Shown: positions 5,330 through 19,904, counted from the first letter of the stretch. The stretch is DNA of 64,000 bases from Candidatus Latescibacterota bacterium (GCA_965248265.1 CBDFJF010000002.1:992001-1056000); one strand, 5' to 3'. Notes: generated from the letters alone by a model not told the origin. Program-made: numbers and translations.

Positions 5330-6310
5330 ATGCGTGTCAGCTACACTCCCGATTACTACGTGGAACTCGCCTCAGGCCATCCCTTTCCGATGGGCAAGTT
5401 CCCTGCGTTCAAGCAGATTCTATGCGGTGAAGGACTGATCCGTCCACAGGATATCGTCGCGCCGGAGGAAGTTGGTTGGGATGCACTCGAACTGGTGCAC
5501 ACCAGGGACTACCTGCGCGAACTGCGGGATGGACAGATGAGCAAGTCGGCTGTGCGGCGCATGGGGTTGCCATGGTCTCAGGCGCTGGTACGACGGTCTC
5601 GTCTCGCCGTGCAGGGCACCCTTAGCGCCGCGCGTATGGCGCTGAAGGATGGAATAGCGGCCAACCTGGCGGGCGGTACTCATCATGCCTTTCCCGATCA
5701 CGCCGAGGGATTCTGCGTCCTCAATGACGTCGCGGTCACCATTCGCCTGTTGCAACGACAGCGCGAGATAGAGCGTGCTCTCGTCATCGATCTCGATGTT
5801 CATCAAGGCAACGGCAACGCGGCGGCCCTGCCGGATGGAACCGGCGCCTTCACCTTCTCCATGCACGGGGCGCACAACTATCCGTTCGACAAGGGGAAGT
5901 CGTCTCTGGATGTGCAGCTGGATGACGGTCTCACCGACGACGACTACATCGAGACCCTCGACCGCCACTTGCCGCTGGCATTGGATCGCGCGCGAGCCGA
6001 CATCGTCTTCTACCTCGCCGGGGTCGATCTGGTCGCCGGTGACCGCTATGGCCGGCTGGCGCTGAGCCGCGCGGGTCTGCACCGGCGTGACCGGGCCGTA
6101 CTGGAGGCCGTGCACGAGCGTGGACTCACCACGGTCCTGTTGATGTCGGGAGGGTACGCCCGGACACCTGAGGAGACCGCTGATCTGCACGCCATCGTAC
6201 ACCGGGAGGCCCACAGCCTGTCTTTCGCACCCATGCCAGGGCACGCGAGGGCTGCCAGCACTGATCTTGTCAAAAGTTTGTCTACGTCAGAAAGGGATCT
6301 GCTATCATGA
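5330..6310 (+). CDS. Histone deacetylase family protein
   Basis: HPFPMGKF, NLAGGTHHA, GFCVLND, IDLDVHQGNG, SGGY. Confidence 0.9.
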   Translation: MRVSYTPDYYVELASGHPFPMGKFPAFKQILCGEGLIRPQDIVAPEEVGWDALELVHTRDYLRELRDGQMSKSAVRRMGLPWSQALVRRSRLAVQGTLSAARMALKDGIAANLAGGTHHAFPDHAEGFCVLNDVAVTIRLLQRQREIERALVIDLDVHQGNGNAAALPDGTGAFTFSMHGAHNYPFDKGKSSLDVQLDDGLTDDDYIETLDRHLPLALDRARADIVFYLAGVDLVAGDRYGRLALSRAGLHRRDRAVLEAVHERGLTTVLLMSGGYARTPEETADLHAIVHREAHSLSFAPMPGHARAASTDLVKSLSTSERDLLS

Positions 6311-7092
6311 CCGACACACCAGAGGACCAGACGCTTCTGTGGTCCGCGTTGTGCCAGAGTCAGCGACTGGAACTGGTCGGCGAGACCACCGGCGGGATGA
6401 TCCACGAATTGAACAACGGACTCAGCGTCGTCAACGGCCTTGTCGAACTGCTGCTGGAAAAGCTCAACGATAGCCCAGACACGGAAAACCTGTCGACCGC
6501 TGGTTCAGAGGATTTGCTCGACGTGGCGCGGCGAGACCTGGCCAAGGTGGTGGTGTGGATGGACTCCAGCATGGCGAGCGCCGAGCGCCTGCTGGCATAC
6601 GCTCACCGGATGACGGGAAGAAACGCAAAATTGGATGTCAATGAACTATGCGCTGCCGCCTTCGATGAGTCACGCTACCGGTGTGGGCGCGAAGGCATCG
6701 ACATGAAGCTGGATTTGGCTGACGGTCTTCCGCGCGTCAATGGTCACGCTGGTCAACTGCTCTCGGTGCTGTCGAATGTGGTGCGCAACAGCAGGGAGGC
6801 CTATGCCCGCGATGCCACCGCGACTGATTCGCGGACAATCCATATATCGACACACATGGACGGTGCCAACGTCGTCATCCACATCGATGACGAAGGACCC
6901 GGCATACCTCAGGGTATGAGTGAGCGTGTCTTCGAGCTGGCTTTTTCAACGAAAACGGACACAGATGCAGTCGTGGGATCGGGTCTGCCCGTTGCCCGGA
7001 TGATGGTACGCTGCCATGGTGGCGATCTGCGCGTGGGGGAGCGCGCCACGGGTACGCGGATTGTCATCGAGCTGCCCAAGGTCAAAGACTGA
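6307..7092 (+). CDS. Sensor-less histidine kinase (HisKA + HATPase only)
   Basis: H-box MIHELNNGL, N-box NVVRNSREA, G1 DDEGPGI, G2 VGSGL; ATGA overlap with the HDAC gene. Confidence 0.8.
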   Translation: MTDTPEDQTLLWSALCQSQRLELVGETTGGMIHELNNGLSVVNGLVELLLEKLNDSPDTENLSTAGSEDLLDVARRDLAKVVVWMDSSMASAERLLAYAHRMTGRNAKLDVNELCAAAFDESRYRCGREGIDMKLDLADGLPRVNGHAGQLLSVLSNVVRNSREAYARDATATDSRTIHISTHMDGANVVIHIDDEGPGIPQGMSERVFELAFSTKTDTDAVVGSGLPVARMMVRCHGGDLRVGERATGTRIVIELPKVKD

Positions 7093-7477
7093 GGTTCAGT
7101 CTCCATGGGATCAGCAGACTGGCAGCCAACAGGGTCAACGTGTAAAGGGCAGCAGCCAGCAGGGAATAGAGCTGAACTCGTCCAGCCTTGGCCTTGATGC
7201 GATCGACGAGTTGTTGGTCTTCGATGGGCTCCGTTCCCTGCTCAGTGGTGCGCGCACCGCGCGCGGCGAGAAACACTCAGGTAGAGCTGAAGGCCTGAAA
7301 CAGGAAGAGCATGCACATCCAGGCTGGGATGAAGACGATGACGCGCACCGGCAGCGGGAAATCACTCACCGTGAACAGGCCCATGGAGCCGAGGCAGAAG
7401 AAAAACAGCAGAATTCCAAAAAACACTCTGAACCGACGGCCGTCCTCGGTGATATTCGAGGAGGAGATCTCAGCCAG
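7082..7477 (-). CDS. Candidate small membrane selenoprotein (about 131 aa, in-frame TGA read as Sec67)
   Basis: ORFs 7277..7501 and 7082..7276 are in the same frame and separated only by TGA (FQAFSST-U-VFLAARG); a hairpin follows the TGA; probable CTG start after GGAGGAGG, overlapping the AKR stop; three hydrophobic segments. Confidence 0.65.
7250..7264 (-). promoter_or_regulatory. Putative bacterial SECIS for the candidate selenoprotein
   Basis: UGA + 12 nt + GCGCGC-GGU-GCGCGC; spacing and GGU loop resemble the selD hairpin. Confidence 0.5.
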
Positions 7478-8372
7478 CGGGGGCCTCCTCCAGTATGGCA
7501 TCGATGCGGGTCAGCTCATCTTCTGTAAATTCGACCGTTATCGCTCCGAGGTGATCCCGAACCTGCTCCGTATTCTTGGCACCAACGAGCACGCAGGTCA
7601 CGGTCTCCTGTCTCAAGATCCAGGAGATCGCCAGCTGCACCATGTTGATGTCCTTAGCCTGAGCCACTTCAGCGAGCCGATCGGCAACGGCGATCTGGGC
7701 GGCGAAGGTGTCTCCGGCAAATCGGTCCCTGCGTTCATCGCCTTCGGGAAATTCGTGGCCGGGGCGGTAGCGCCCGCTTAACAGCCCCTTGCCCAGCGGA
7801 CTGTGCGCGAGGATGCCGATGCCGTGCTCCTCGCAGTACGGAATATCGGCTTCCTCGATCTTCCGGTTGAACATGTTGTAGGCAGGTTGGTTTGAACTGA
7901 AGGTGGCGATGGCGCTCGCCCGCTGCATTTGATCGGCGTTGAAGTTGGAGACGCCGATGAAGCGCACCTTGCCCTCTTCCTGCAGTTCGGCCATGGCTTC
8001 CATGCTCGCCTCCACCGGGTATTTCGCGTTCCAGCTGTGGATCTGGTAGAGGTCGACGTACTCGACGTCCAGCTTGCGCAGACTATCGTCGATGGACTTG
8101 TGGATGGCCTCGGGAGAGTAGTCGTGGCTGACTTTGGTGGCCAGAAAACAGCGGTCGCGATAGCCGTCCTTGAGGGCCTTGCCGACGCGTTCCTCGCTGA
8201 CGCGATAAGCCTGCGCCGTGTCGACGAGGGTGACGCCCTCATCGATTGCCGTACGCACGATGTCGATGGCCGTCTGTTCATCCATGTCACCCATGCCACC
8301 GCCCAGGGGCCAGGCCCCGAGGCCGATGACGGGTACTTCAGGTCCGTCCGTTCCCAGTTGTCTGTATTCCAT
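7470..8372 (-). CDS. Aldo/keto reductase
   Basis: IGLGAW, DTAQAY, LATKV, DLYQIH, IGVSNF, HSPLGKGLLSG. Confidence 0.92.
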   Translation of the reverse strand: MEYRQLGTDGPEVPVIGLGAWPLGGGMGDMDEQTAIDIVRTAIDEGVTLVDTAQAYRVSEERVGKALKDGYRDRCFLATKVSHDYSPEAIHKSIDDSLRKLDVEYVDLYQIHSWNAKYPVEASMEAMAELQEEGKVRFIGVSNFNADQMQRASAIATFSSNQPAYNMFNRKIEEADIPYCEEHGIGILAHSPLGKGLLSGRYRPGHEFPEGDERRDRFAGDTFAAQIAVADRLAEVAQAKDINMVQLAISWILRQETVTCVLVGAKNTEQVRDHLGAITVEFTEDELTRIDAILEEAPAG

Positions 8373-8403: not shown

Positions 8404-9132
8404 TCAGAGTGTTAGGGTAATTTTAAGCCAATCTTCGAGCAGAAACGATATGCGGCCGATGAGCAGGGACAGGCGTGCCATGATGGTATAGCCGAAGGAG
8501 GCGCCGAAGGCGACCATCAGGAAGTAGATGCCGACTTTGGAAACGCCACCCACGATGCCGGTATGCTCCACAGAAAAGAAGAAATAAACCAGCACAGACA
8601 CCACACCGATGAGGACGACGAGAACGTCGAACCCTTCCATCGTCAGCGATAGCGGCCGCAACGTCGGTTCGATCTGCTGCAGGATGAAGGAAGAGATATA
8701 GCGCGGGATGGTCAATCCGGCGCCGAAACCGACGAAAAATGCGAAGGAAATTCGGCTCAACCACGCCCAGCGGCGGGAAAAGCGGGTCAGCATTAACACG
8801 CCCAGGATGGTGGGTATGAGAAGCAGCCACTTGGTGTGCGCCTCCGCCTCTTCCTTCATGAAGACGGGTTCGATGAGCATGCCGAAGAAGCCGCCGAACC
8901 AGTACTGGCCGAAGATGTAGGCGGCAGCGACGCCGACGTAGATGTGCTCGGCGAACTTGAAGAGAGGATTGTCCTTGTAGAGGAAGCTGTATATCAGCAG
9001 CGTGAGTCCGGCTCCCACGATGATACCGAAACCAGTCCAATCCGCCTGCAGCCGCCCCGTACCAAGGAAGACGACGTTGAGTGCCGCAAAGGCCAGGATG
9101 AGGCCGCCAAAGATGTAGCTGTCTCTGCTCAT
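8404..9132 (-). CDS. Conserved multi-pass membrane protein of unknown function (GlmL-like operon)
   Basis: About 7 hydrophobic helices; YSFLYKDNPLFKFAEH and MVAFGASFGYTIMARLSLLIGR motifs; ATGA overlap with the upstream gene. Confidence 0.8.
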   Translation of the reverse strand: MSRDSYIFGGLILAFAALNVVFLGTGRLQADWTGFGIIVGAGLTLLIYSFLYKDNPLFKFAEHIYVGVAAAYIFGQYWFGGFFGMLIEPVFMKEEAEAHTKWLLLIPTILGVLMLTRFSRRWAWLSRISFAFFVGFGAGLTIPRYISSFILQQIEPTLRPLSLTMEGFDVLVVLIGVVSVLVYFFFSVEHTGIVGGVSKVGIYFLMVAFGASFGYTIMARLSLLIGRISFLLEDWLKITLTL

Positions 9133-18848: not shown

Positions 18849-19904
18849 GTGGCACTATTTTCCAAGAAAAAGACGCTGACCGGACTCGCCAAGACCTGCG
18901 GGTGAGCAGCCAAGGTGAGTCCGGTCGGACTCGACAAGCTGCTCCAGGCATTACCAAAGAAAGTCGACCCGAATCTACTGGTGGGTTTCGAGACGAGCGA
19001 TGACGCGGGTGTGTACCGATTGACCGACGATGTGGCCCTCGTCGTCACCGCCGACATCATCACTCCACCGGTAGACGACCCCTTCGTGTTCGGGCAGATC
19101 GGCGCCGCGAACTCAATCAGCGACGTGTACGCCATGGGCGGCAAACCAGTCACCTGCCTGAATCTGCTCGGTTTTCCTACGACCGAATTGGGGCCGGAGG
19201 TTCTGCAGGGGATTGTCGAGGGGGCGCTGACTAAGATCACGGAAGCCGAGGCGGTCCTGGCGGGGGGGCACACGACGGAAGATGAGGAGCCCAAGTTCGG
19301 CCTGGCAGTGACCGGAGTCGTGCATCCGAAAAAATACTGGCACAACAAGGGGGCCAGGCAGGGTGAGGTGTTGATTCTGACCAAGCGAATCGGCAGCGGC
19401 GTCTTGTTCAATGCCAATCTCAAGGGCTTGGTGCCGGAGGCGGCGATGAAGGCATGCATCGATTCGCTGATAACGCTGAACAAGTCGGCGGCGGAGGTGC
19501 TCCAGCACTACGACGTCAGTGCGGTCACGGACATAACCGGATTCGGCCTTGCCGGCCACGCTCTGGAAATGGCCAAGGGGTCGGATGTGACGCTGGAGAT
19601 CGACATCGATGCGATTCCGGTGATGGCAGAAGCTGCGAACATGTACGACAAGGGGGTTACTACCGGGTCCAATTTGAACAACCGCGCCCTGATCACCGGC
19701 CATACCCATTTCGATCGCGAGCTGCCCGGCAACAGCGGGGAGATTTTCGTGGACCCGCAGACCAGCGGCGGTTTACTGGCGGCGCTACCGGAGTCCCAGG
19801 CACAGGAGGCCCTTAGTAGAATGCACGACGCTGGGTTGGACGCCGCCTGCATCATTGGGCATGTTCGTCCACCCTCGGCGCCAGACTATCTGGTCTTCAA
19901 ATAA
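18849..19904 (+). CDS. selD: Selenide, water dikinase (SelD/SenC), selenocysteine-containing
   Basis: GTG 18849 gives MALFSKKKTLTGLAKTCG-TGA(18903)-AAKVSP, the U-x-x-K active site; DDAGVY, ANSISDVYAMGG, GGHT, TDITGFGL, DPQTSGGLL. Confidence 0.95.
18917..18932 (+). promoter_or_regulatory. SECIS element of selD
   Basis: UGA + 11 nt + perfect stem GAGUCC-(GGUC loop)-GGACUC. Confidence 0.8.

What the first reader, a model, noticed from the sequence alone, without database searches (positions are those of the whole stretch)
7082..7477. Hidden membrane selenoprotein split by TGA, with its own SECIS-like hairpin
Seen: two ORFs in the same frame (7277..7501 and 7082..7276) are separated by a single TGA at 7277-7279. 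Joined, they give one coherent ~131-aa protein with three hydrophobic helices (…LFQAFSST-U-VFLAARG…). Twelve nt after the UGA is GCGCGC-GGU-GCGCGC, which puts the loop G at +19; the selD SECIS in this window has a GGUC loop at +18. Established: bacterial Sec insertion uses a G-containing loop just downstream of the UGA, and a TGA-containing selD implies that this genome decodes Sec. Inference: this is an unannotated selenoprotein with Sec just after the second TM helix, perhaps a membrane redox or Se/metal-handling protein. I recall similar small proteins with Cys at this position (Q-A-x-x-x-x-C-V), but I have not verified that. Caveat: an overlapping palindrome, GGTGCGCGCACC, could form a competing fold.
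Basis: partly seen in the sequence, partly recalled or inferred. Interest (0 to 1): 0.85.

Follow-up and report, generated by a model that had tools for sequence, protein, structure and literature searches.

The report
Hidden membrane selenoprotein gene confirmed
A small three-helix membrane protein gene that public gene calls cut short at an in-frame TGA is almost certainly a real selenocysteine-containing protein from a large uncharacterised family, which would add a new family to the bacterial selenoproteins.

Summary
On the minus strand, 7085-7501 is one 139-codon frame interrupted only by TGA at 7277-7279. In 34 homologous genes from two phyla, that codon is TGA in 10 and Cys (TGC/TGT) in 24. 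In a profile search of 1.84 billion proteins, the site is Cys in 143 of the 150 best hits. Identity to the window's protein is the same on both sides of the site (43.0% and 43.0%). The genome has tRNA-Sec(TCA), selA, selB and a TGA-containing selD. The hairpin GCGCGC-GGU-GCGCGC starts 13 nt after the UGA and meets the published bacterial SECIS constraints. All 10 Sec forms have a G-loop hairpin at this position, built from different, mutually compensating stem sequences. Some Cys forms also have such a hairpin, so the hairpin alone does not prove the case. Public gene calls stop at the TGA: the 74-aa N-terminal piece is on record and the C-terminal piece is not. No Pfam, NCBIfam or PDB family matches. 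The resemblance to the YgaP-like TM domain is weak and unproven. The function is unknown; the lone Sec most likely sits at the cytoplasmic membrane surface. No experimental evidence was available.

The parts
7085..7501 (-). Coding sequence of the selenoprotein: 139 codons from ATG 7501, with the stop TGA at 7082-7084. It overlaps the end of the upstream aldo/keto reductase gene by 32 nt.
   Evidence: Full-length homologues in 27 other genomes of the same phylum and 6 Acidobacteriota genomes. The start is uncertain: ATG 7501 is the only canonical start before the conserved N16, and public gene calls use it.
7277..7279 (-). In-frame TGA, read as selenocysteine (residue 75).
   Evidence: It aligns with TGA in 9 other genes and with TGC/TGT in 24. 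The column is one of five invariant columns in the 19-sequence alignment A1. It is Cys in 143 of the 150 best profile hits.
7250..7264 (-). SECIS-like hairpin GCGCGC-GGU-GCGCGC: 6-bp stem, 3-nt loop starting 18 nt after the UGA.
   Evidence: dG is -9.6 kcal/mol. It meets the four bSECIS constraints quoted in PMC13188914 (Fig. 2 legend).
7367..7447 (-). Predicted helix 1 (residues 19-45), preceded by the conserved N-I-x-x-x-G-R-R-x-R motif.
   Evidence: AlphaFold2 model. N16 and R25 are invariant.
7286..7354 (-). Predicted helix 2 (residues 50-72), ending in the conserved Q69 just before T74-U75.
7112..7216 (-). Predicted helix 3 (residues 96-130), encoded after the TGA. A short helix (76-80) and a beta-hairpin (83-92) lie between the Sec and this helix.
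   Evidence: Conservation downstream of the site equals that upstream.
7470..8372 (-). Upstream aldo/keto reductase gene, probably co-transcribed. This is context, not a conserved partner.
   Evidence: Pfam Aldo_ket_red, E 6.9e-79. The upstream neighbour is a different gene in the other loci examined.
18876..19799 (+). selD (selenophosphate synthetase) with its own in-frame TGA at 18903-18905 and SECIS hairpin at 18917-18932. It is part of the Sec machinery and the local reference for SECIS geometry.
   Evidence: (352.2 bits, 1 TGA).

Best explanation
Window 7085-7501 (minus strand) is one gene for a 139-aa, three-helix inner-membrane selenoprotein. The UGA at codon 75 is recoded to selenocysteine by SelB and Sec-tRNA(Sec). 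These are recruited by a small GC-rich hairpin with a GGU loop that begins 13 nt downstream, inside the coding sequence. The protein belongs to a large family with no Pfam, NCBIfam or PDB match (about 1,840 clusters at 50% identity). Its one nearly universal Cys is replaced by Sec in scattered lineages. Shown: the reading frame, the Sec/Cys alignment, the Sec machinery and the hairpin. Inferred from the positive-inside rule and the model: the N-terminus and the loop between helices 2 and 3 are cytoplasmic, which places Sec75 at the cytoplasmic membrane surface at the start of a short helix. Inferred from the Sec/Cys exchange, which is typical of catalytic or ligand residues: Sec75 is the working residue, a redox-active or chalcogen/metal-binding nucleophile. 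I favour a thiol/selenol redox or sulfur/selenium-relay role, but hold that part at only about 0.3.
For: (1) It is one frame with one TGA.
(2) I examined 34 family genes: 28 of the 168 genomes of the window's phylum and 6 Acidobacteriota genomes. The aligned codon is TGA in 10 and TGC/TGT in 24. The TGA genomes are G000; G015, G026 and G032; G001; G013 and G024; G098, from another family-rank group; and the Acidobacteriota G440 and G417.
(3) In the profile search of 1.84e9 proteins, 1,840 hits have E<=1e-3 and 503 have E<=1e-10. Among the best 150, the site is C in 143, another residue in 5, and 2 proteins end just before it.
(4) Identity to the window's protein is 43.0% upstream and 43.0% downstream of the site, as means over 18 homologues. 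V76 and G82 downstream are invariant.
(5) The Sec machinery is present: tRNA-Sec at 68.9 bits, anticodon TCA; selA at 560.9 bits; selB at 332.8 bits; selD with 1 TGA. selA is present in 131 of 168 genomes of the phylum, including all 28 that hold the family.
(6) All 10 Sec forms have a 5-8 bp hairpin whose G-containing loop starts 16-19 nt after the UGA. The stem sequences differ and compensate: GCGCGC/GCGCGC, GCGCGUG/CACGCGC, CGCCUC/GAGGCG, GUUGCGUG/CACGCAAU, GCACG/CGUGC. By the published bSECIS constraints, 7 of 10 Sec forms pass against 5 of 24 Cys forms. With spacing restricted to 16-20 nt, it is 7 of 10 against 3 of 24.
(7) On the tree, the Sec label needs 5 changes, at least 3 of them forced by well-supported branches. 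The window's protein is sister to a Cys form with 100/98 support. This is the usual pattern of Sec/Cys interconversion.
(8) An independent assembly of runs X1 and X3 covers 6900-7417 with 0 differences.
(9) TGA is an ordinary stop in this genome: this gene and the upstream reductase both end in TGA.
(10) Public gene calls stop at the site. All 8 members of the window's 90% cluster are 74 aa long.
Against: There is no experimental evidence of selenium incorporation or of translation past the UGA, and no RNA run was listed.

The hairpin is not decisive on its own. The generic folding energy of +10..+42 does not separate Sec from Cys forms (means -13.8 and -11.2 kcal/mol). Excess stability over synonymous recodings does not separate them either (mean z -1.12 and -0.72, Mann-Whitney p 0.25). 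For the window itself, z is only -1.0.

Several Cys forms (G023, G034, G168 and others) keep a similar hairpin, so part of it follows from coding A-A-R-G-x-R in GC-rich codons.

Three of the 10 Sec forms (G024, G440, G417) fall short of -7.5 kcal/mol when only contiguous stems are counted.

The genomes are related, so the Fisher and Mann-Whitney figures overstate independence.

The functional part has no support from gene neighbourhood, which is not conserved across phyla, nor from any known fold.
Confidence: 0.85

Rival explanations
1. The gene is a recently inactivated pseudogene: a Cys codon (TGC/TGT) mutated to TGA, and the downstream half is decaying.
For: A single base change turns TGC or TGT into TGA. 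The closest full-length relative in the databases (P0003, 80% identical) has Cys.
Against: The same codon is TGA in 10 genes from at least seven genus-level lineages in two phyla. All 8 members of the window's 90% cluster end at the same site. There are no further stops or frameshifts, and conservation downstream equals that upstream. All TGA holders examined in the window's phylum have selA.
Confidence: 0.04
2. The gene is split. UGA terminates a 74-aa two-helix protein, and the adjacent GTG at 7276-7274 restarts translation of a separate 64-aa protein.
For: In the window, GTG follows the TGA directly. Six of the 10 TGA forms have GTG there.
Against: Four of the 10 TGA forms have GTA (two), ATT or CTG after the TGA, and these are not usual start codons. 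That codon encodes the invariant Val/Ile of the family. No free-standing C-terminal half turned up among the best 150 profile hits, although lengths below about 0.55x were not searched separately with the search for homologous proteins. The AlphaFold2 model packs helix 3 with helices 1-2 at pLDDT 91.
Confidence: 0.05
3. The UGA is read through, but by a near-cognate tRNA (Trp or Cys) or by general leakiness rather than by Sec-tRNA(Sec).
For: None specific. Read-through would also keep the downstream half under selection.
Against: A full Sec system is present. The site is a nearly invariant Cys in the family. There is a hairpin of bSECIS geometry at the right distance in all 10 TGA forms. The selD in the same window uses the same geometry.
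Confidence: 0.04
4. The TGA is a sequencing or assembly error in this genome.
For: None.
Against: Logan contigs of runs X1 and X3 cover 6900-7417 with 0 differences. Those runs may be the genome's own source sample, so this is an independent assembly, not an independent sample. Seven other protein sequences in the same 90% cluster, held by NCBI, ENA, JGI/IMG and Logan, also end at 74 aa.
Confidence: 0.01

Closest known systems
YgaP-like transmembrane domain (Pfam PF11127, DUF2892)
   Same: Both have a basic motif before helix 1 (family N-I-G-x-x-x-R-R-x-R; DUF2892 E-R-x-I-R-L-I-A-G), then two helices, then a conserved Q/S...T-x-x-C just after helix 2 (compare). When hhalign is forced to extend the alignment, the two conserved Cys residues align colinearly. 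PF11127 is the commonest weak Pfam hit: 3 of 19 members with best E 0.029, and P0016 with E 0.0043.
   Different: All scores are below the Pfam cut-off (best 17.6 bits against 25.3). hhalign gives P 0.0098 and probability 4%. This family has an added short helix, a beta-hairpin and a third helix, making it about 120-140 aa against 66. No YgaP structure appeared in the PDB profile search at E<=10 or in Foldseek. What I say about YgaP's biology is recalled, not tested.
[quoted passage not shown]
   Same: These are integral membrane proteins in which a conserved Cys is Sec in some lineages (PMC13188914, Table 1; I read section 7, parts 1-2).
   Different: There is no sequence match to those models. 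This protein has a lone Sec with no CxxU/UxxC-type partner in most members; a second Cys at +9 occurs in 30 of the 150 best hits.
selD of the same window (18876-19799)
   Same: It has an in-frame TGA followed after 11 nt by a 6-bp GC-rich stem with a GGUC loop at +18. The new gene has 12 nt, a 6-bp stem and a GGU loop at +19.
   Different: It is an unrelated soluble enzyme, used here only as the organism's own SECIS reference.
Hypothetical protein GOS_A (PMC2398784, Table 4; 2 Sec sequences, 155 Cys homologues, no conserved domain)
   Same: It is a marine, domain-less Sec/Cys family.
   Different: I cannot tell. Its sequence appears only in a figure and a supplementary dataset that I could not see, and it is not in the 2026 inventory (PMC13188914, Table 1). 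I read only passages of PMC2398784.

Membership tests
Bacterial selenoprotein gene (UGA-Sec with coding-region SECIS) | In-frame UGA that aligns with Cys in homologues | tested here: met
   24 Cys and 10 TGA among the 34 genes examined. C in 143 of the 150 best profile hits.
Bacterial selenoprotein gene (UGA-Sec with coding-region SECIS) | Sequence conservation on both sides of the UGA | tested here: met
   43.0% upstream and 43.0% downstream, mean over 18 homologues. Invariant V76 and G82.
Bacterial selenoprotein gene (UGA-Sec with coding-region SECIS) | TGA-containing orthologues in other Sec-using organisms | tested here: met
   Nine further TGA forms. The seven in the window's phylum all have selA. 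selA was not checked in the two Acidobacteriota genomes.
Bacterial selenoprotein gene (UGA-Sec with coding-region SECIS) | The genome encodes tRNA-Sec, SelA, SelB and SelD | tested here: met
Bacterial selenoprotein gene (UGA-Sec with coding-region SECIS) | bSECIS consensus: 3-9 nt loop, 4-16 bp stem, G in the first two loop positions, 16-37 nt from UGA to loop, energy <= -7.5 kcal/mol (PMC13188914, Fig. 2 legend) | tested here: met
   Window: 3-nt GGU loop, 6-bp stem, spacing 18, -9.6 kcal/mol. Family-wide, 7 of 10 Sec forms and 5 of 24 Cys forms pass, so specificity is moderate. bSECISearch and deep-Sep themselves were not available.
Bacterial selenoprotein gene (UGA-Sec with coding-region SECIS) | Selenium shown in the protein (75Se labelling or mass spectrometry) | not testable with these tools
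   This needs an experiment.
YgaP-like_TM (PF11127, DUF2892) | Score at or above Pfam's gathering cut-off (25.3 bits) | tested here: not met
   No hit for the window's protein. 3 of 19 members hit with best E 0.029. The best single hit is 17.6 bits.
YgaP-like_TM (PF11127, DUF2892) | Profile-profile similarity to bona fide DUF2892 proteins | tested here: inconclusive
   hhalign of 154 family sequences against 9 DUF2892 sequences from related genomes gave P 0.0098, probability 4.2% and 15 confidently aligned columns. The Cys residues align only when the alignment is forced.
Any of the 119 prokaryotic selenoprotein families/subfamilies listed in PMC13188914, Table 1 | Match to the Pfam, TIGRFAM or NCBIfam model given for the family | tested here: not met
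   Pfam and NCBIfam r20.0 give no relevant hit for the window's protein, for the 19 members in Pfam, or for 60 Cys members in NCBIfam. The few families defined only by cd or PTHR identifiers were not scanned; the table names them as soluble thioredoxin-like, CopZ-like, BtuF or Fe-S proteins.
Hypothetical protein GOS_A (PMC2398784) | Sequence identity with the published GOS_A reads | not testable with these tools
   The sequences are only in Figure 6E and Dataset S2.

The most novel reading that the evidence does not exclude
This is the first recognised Sec-containing member of an undescribed, widespread family of three-helix inner-membrane proteins (about 1,800 clusters at 50% identity, in at least two phyla). 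In this reading, a lone Sec/Cys at the cytoplasmic membrane surface is the catalytic or ligand residue. That would make it a membrane-embedded selenol enzyme or a sulfur/selenium/metal relay, possibly an elaborated descendant of the YgaP-like TM domain, acting on lipid-phase or membrane-delivered substrates.
Probability: 0.3. Interest if true: 0.7.

Novelty: new member of a known kind. Interest (0 to 1): 0.55.

Why it matters
Selenocysteine is costly to insert. Where it replaces a conserved Cys, it reliably marks the residue that does the chemistry. Here it marks one residue in a family of about 1,800 clusters that has no Pfam, NCBIfam or structural assignment, which gives an entry point to its function.

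Few of the listed bacterial selenoprotein families are integral membrane proteins, and this one has no CxxU/UxxC partner motif.

In practice, public gene calls truncate the protein at 74 aa. Annotation and selenoproteome counts for this phylum and for Acidobacteriota therefore miss it. A family model with a Sec-aware rule would fix many records at once.

Tried and rejected
- Homodimer prediction with natural Cys homologues (alignment A3, 2 copies) gave 'no answer' (score 0.00). This is not evidence either way.
- No RNA holder was listed for the stretch, so nothing can be said about expression.
- Foldseek of the model against the PDB gave no match with E<=0.001; the best was E 1.5.
- The PDB sequence-profile search gave only chance hits at E 2.9-3.9.
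- The ESM Atlas search with the Cys orthologue P0003 returned 30 of 30 best hits as 'hypothetical protein' with no common Pfam.
It found nothing with the single protein. It found 2 Acidobacteriota loci with A2.
- The search for homologous proteins, which is word-indexed, gave only 3 full-length hits, all Cys and all unnamed or 'hypothetical'.
- Generic folding energy and a synonymous-recoding test did not separate Sec from Cys forms. I replaced them with a position-specific hairpin test. The first version of that test had one locus, L083, misplaced by a regex error, which one search corrects.
- Gene neighbourhood was not informative. An alpha/beta hydrolase lies upstream in 16 of 28 loci of the window's phylum, and another ~490-aa gene in 8. 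The window has an aldo/keto reductase instead, and the Acidobacteriota loci have unrelated neighbours. I therefore read the hydrolase as local synteny, not a functional partner.
- The Haft and Tolstoy 2025 paper (PMC12013261) is not held. I know its families only through the review's table.
- Literature searches for 'selenoprotein' with 'DUF2892' found 0 papers. Two broader searches found nothing describing this family.

Full report
**Observation.** The minus strand of 7082-7501 carries two ORFs in one frame, 7277..7501 (74 aa) and 7082..7276 (64 aa). They are separated only by TGA at 7277-7279. Read through, the frame gives 139 aa from ATG 7501 with ...LFQAFSST-U-VFLAARG... at the junction, and it ends at TGA 7082-7084. 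ATG 7501 is the only ATG/GTG/TTG upstream of the conserved N-terminal motif, and it overlaps the end of the upstream aldo/keto reductase gene (7470..8372; Pfam E 6.9e-79) by 32 nt. Twelve nt after the UGA lies GCGCGC(7264-7259)-GGU(7258-7256)-GCGCGC(7255-7250). The selD gene of the window (18876-19799) has an in-frame TGA at 18903-18905, followed after 11 nt by GAGUCC-GGUC-GGACUC.

**Homologues.** A six-frame search of 60 related genomes found full-length relatives that span both halves, some with "1 TGA" inside and some with none. Translation showed the TGA in register with Cys in the motif LQAxxxT[C/U]VFLAARG.
- In the 19-sequence alignment A1, the site is one of five invariant columns (N16, R25, C/U75, V76, G82).
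- A profile search of the whole phylum found the family in 28 of the 168 genomes held. The site is TGA in 8 of them: G000; G015, G026 and G032; G001; G013 and G024; and G098 from another family-rank group.
- Two Acidobacteriota MAG loci were found with alignment A2. A sample of 401 genomes of that phylum had the family in 5, two of them (G440, G417) with TGA at the same site. Only 11 candidates per genome were scored in that search, so 5 is a lower bound.
- In total I examined 34 genes: 10 Sec forms and 24 Cys forms.
- A profile search of 1.84 billion cluster representatives gave 1,840 hits at E<=1e-3 and 503 at E<=1e-10, mostly about 120 aa long. Among the best 150, the site is C in 143 and S, D or G in 5. 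Two proteins, P0121 and P0128, end immediately before it.
- Identity to the window's protein is 43.0% upstream and 43.0% downstream of the site, as means over 18 homologues.
- On a maximum-likelihood tree of 41 rows, the Sec label needs 5 changes, at least 3 of them forced by well-supported branches. The window's protein is sister to the Cys form P0003 with 100/98 support.

**Sec machinery.** The genome has:
- tRNA-Sec (68.9 bits; ARAGORN tRNA-SeC, anticodon TCA);
- selA (560.9 bits);
- selB (332.8 bits);
- selD with one TGA.

selA is present in 131 of the 168 genomes of the phylum, including all 28 that hold the family. TGA is otherwise a normal stop here: this gene and the reductase both end in TGA.

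**SECIS.** The published bacterial model asks for a 3-9 nt apical loop, a 4-16 bp stem, a G in the first two loop positions, 16-37 nt between UGA and loop, and an energy of -7.5 kcal/mol or lower (PMC13188914, Fig. 2 legend; I read passages).
- The window's hairpin has a GGU loop, a 6-bp stem, spacing 18 and -9.6 kcal/mol, so it meets all four constraints.
- All 10 Sec forms have a 5-8 bp hairpin whose loop (GUG, GGU, GGA, GGG or CGGGA) starts 16-19 nt after the UGA. The stems differ yet stay complementary: GCGCGC/GCGCGC, GCGCGUG/CACGCGC, CGCCUC/GAGGCG, GUUGCGUG/CACGCAAU, GCGCG/CGCGC, GCACG/CGUGC.
- Counting contiguous stems only, 7 of 10 Sec forms and 5 of 24 Cys forms pass (Fisher 0.015). 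With spacing 16-20, it is 7 of 10 against 3 of 24 (Fisher 0.0019). These genomes are related, so the p-values are generous.

Results against the hairpin as evidence:
- The plain folding energy of +10..+42 does not separate the groups (-13.8 against -11.2 kcal/mol).
- Stability relative to synonymous recodings does not separate them either (mean z -1.12 against -0.72, p 0.25; the window's own z is -1.0).
- Part of the hairpin is therefore a by-product of encoding A-A-R-G-x-R in GC-rich codons, and some Cys lineages keep it.

The hairpin is consistent with a SECIS and is enriched in Sec forms, but the case rests mainly on the Sec/Cys alignment.

**Is the TGA real, and how is the gene annotated?** Logan contigs of runs X1 and X3 cover 6900-7417 with no difference. 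Those runs may be the genome's own source sample. The window's 74-aa N-terminal ORF is on record as a predicted protein in NCBI and ENA, on a contig of 4,141,828 nt. It belongs to a 90%-identity cluster of 8 sequences, all 74 aa long. The 64-aa C-terminal ORF is not on record. So current gene calls truncate the protein at the Sec codon, in this genome and in its close relatives.

**What the protein is.**
- AlphaFold2 on A1 gives a confident model (pLDDT 91.1, pTM 0.80) with helices 19-45 and 50-72, then Sec75, a short helix 76-80, a beta-hairpin 83-92 and a long helix 96-130.
- Lys and Arg cluster before helix 1 (R5, R6, R22, R23, R25) and in the 73-108 loop. By the positive-inside rule, I infer that the N-terminus and that loop are cytoplasmic, which puts Sec75 at the cytoplasmic membrane surface.
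- The nearly invariant positions are N16, R25, R53, Q69, T74, C/U75, V76 and G82, plus an Asp in the hairpin.
- A second Cys nine residues after the site occurs in 30 of the 150 best hits and in one Sec form (G417). It is Arg in the window.
- No Pfam or NCBIfam model matches, no PDB sequence or fold matches, and the Atlas look-alikes are all unnamed.
- The only recurrent weak signal is the YgaP-like TM domain PF11127. Three of 19 members hit it with best E 0.029, and one hit has E 0.0043, all below the cut-off. By eye, the basic motif before helix 1 and the Q...T-x-x-C after helix 2 look alike.
- hhalign against nine DUF2892 sequences gives only P 0.0098 and probability 4%. I treat this relationship as a lead, not a finding.

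**Function.** Neighbourhood does not help. An alpha/beta hydrolase lies upstream in 16 of 28 loci of this phylum, and another gene in 8. The window has the reductase instead, and the Acidobacteriota loci have a HlyD-like gene, CstA, DoxX, a methylase or a transposase. From general knowledge of selenoproteins (PMC13188914, section 7), Sec/Cys exchange marks redox-active or ligand residues. I therefore commit, at about 0.3, to a selenol/thiol nucleophile working at the inner face of the membrane, in redox chemistry or sulfur/selenium/metal relay.

**Comparison with what is known.** The 2026 inventory lists 119 prokaryotic selenoprotein families and subfamilies, each with a domain identifier (PMC13188914, Table 1; I read section 7, parts 1-2). 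None of the Pfam, TIGRFAM or NCBIfam models matches this protein or 60 of its Cys relatives.
- BSepDB is built by homology to known families (PMC13326102; I read passages).
- deep-Sep's nine new families are different (PMC12013277; I read passages).
- The Sargasso Sea "hypothetical protein 1" has a CxxU motif, which this family lacks (PMC1088965; I read passages).
- The one published candidate I cannot exclude is "hypothetical protein GOS_A": 2 Sec sequences, 155 Cys homologues, no domain. Its sequence is only in a figure and a supplement that I could not see (PMC2398784, passages).
- Supplementary tables of these papers were closed and could list it.
- Searches for 'selenoprotein' with 'DUF2892' found no paper, and two broader searches found nothing on this family.

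**Verdict.** It is a previously unrecognised (or at least unmodelled) selenoprotein family, and the gene is truncated in public annotation.

Noticed in passing
window 18876-19799 (+), TGA at 18903-18905: selD is itself a selenoprotein here. Its SECIS is GAGUCC-GGUC-GGACUC at 18917-18932, about 11.4 kb from the new gene. The proximity is not seen in the one other genome checked: in G015 the family gene and selA are megabases apart.
   Followed up: partly
window 7082-7417, runs X1 and X3: Besides the identical contig, the same runs hold a second contig about 82% identical (62 differences in 336 nt). It fits only from the gene's stop codon at 7082 upward and has unrelated sequence beyond. This is either a diverged second copy or a related organism carrying the gene in another context. 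It may correspond to the 80%-identical Cys form P0003.
   Followed up: no
L016-L033 and L051-L067 (family loci of the window's phylum): An alpha/beta hydrolase (Abhydrolase_1, E down to 1.5e-32) lies immediately upstream on the same strand in 16 of 28 loci, for both Sec and Cys forms. Another ~490-aa gene takes that place in 8 loci. The window has an aldo/keto reductase there instead.
   Followed up: partly
family alignment, residue 84 of the window's protein (site +9): A second Cys nine residues after the Sec/Cys site (C-x8-C) occurs in 30 of the 150 best profile hits, in two genus-level groups of the window's phylum and in one Sec form (G417, U-x8-C). It is Arg in most others (77 of 150). 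It could be a facultative resolving Cys.
   Followed up: partly
window 6307-7092 (+) and 8404-9132 (-): A histidine kinase (HATPase_c, E 3.9e-17) converges on the 3' end of the selenoprotein gene and overlaps it by 11 nt (7082-7092). Upstream of the reductase lies a 242-aa polytopic membrane protein with only a weak DoxX_3 hit (E 0.015). A DoxX_2 gene also sits next to the Sec form in Acidobacteriota genome G417.
   Followed up: no
P0004 (identical to the G163 protein): NCBI labels one Cys-form member 'MAG: hypothetical protein [Gemmatimonadaceae bacterium]', although the genome collection used here places its holder in a phylum with only 168 species. The public taxonomic label may be loose.
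   Followed up: no
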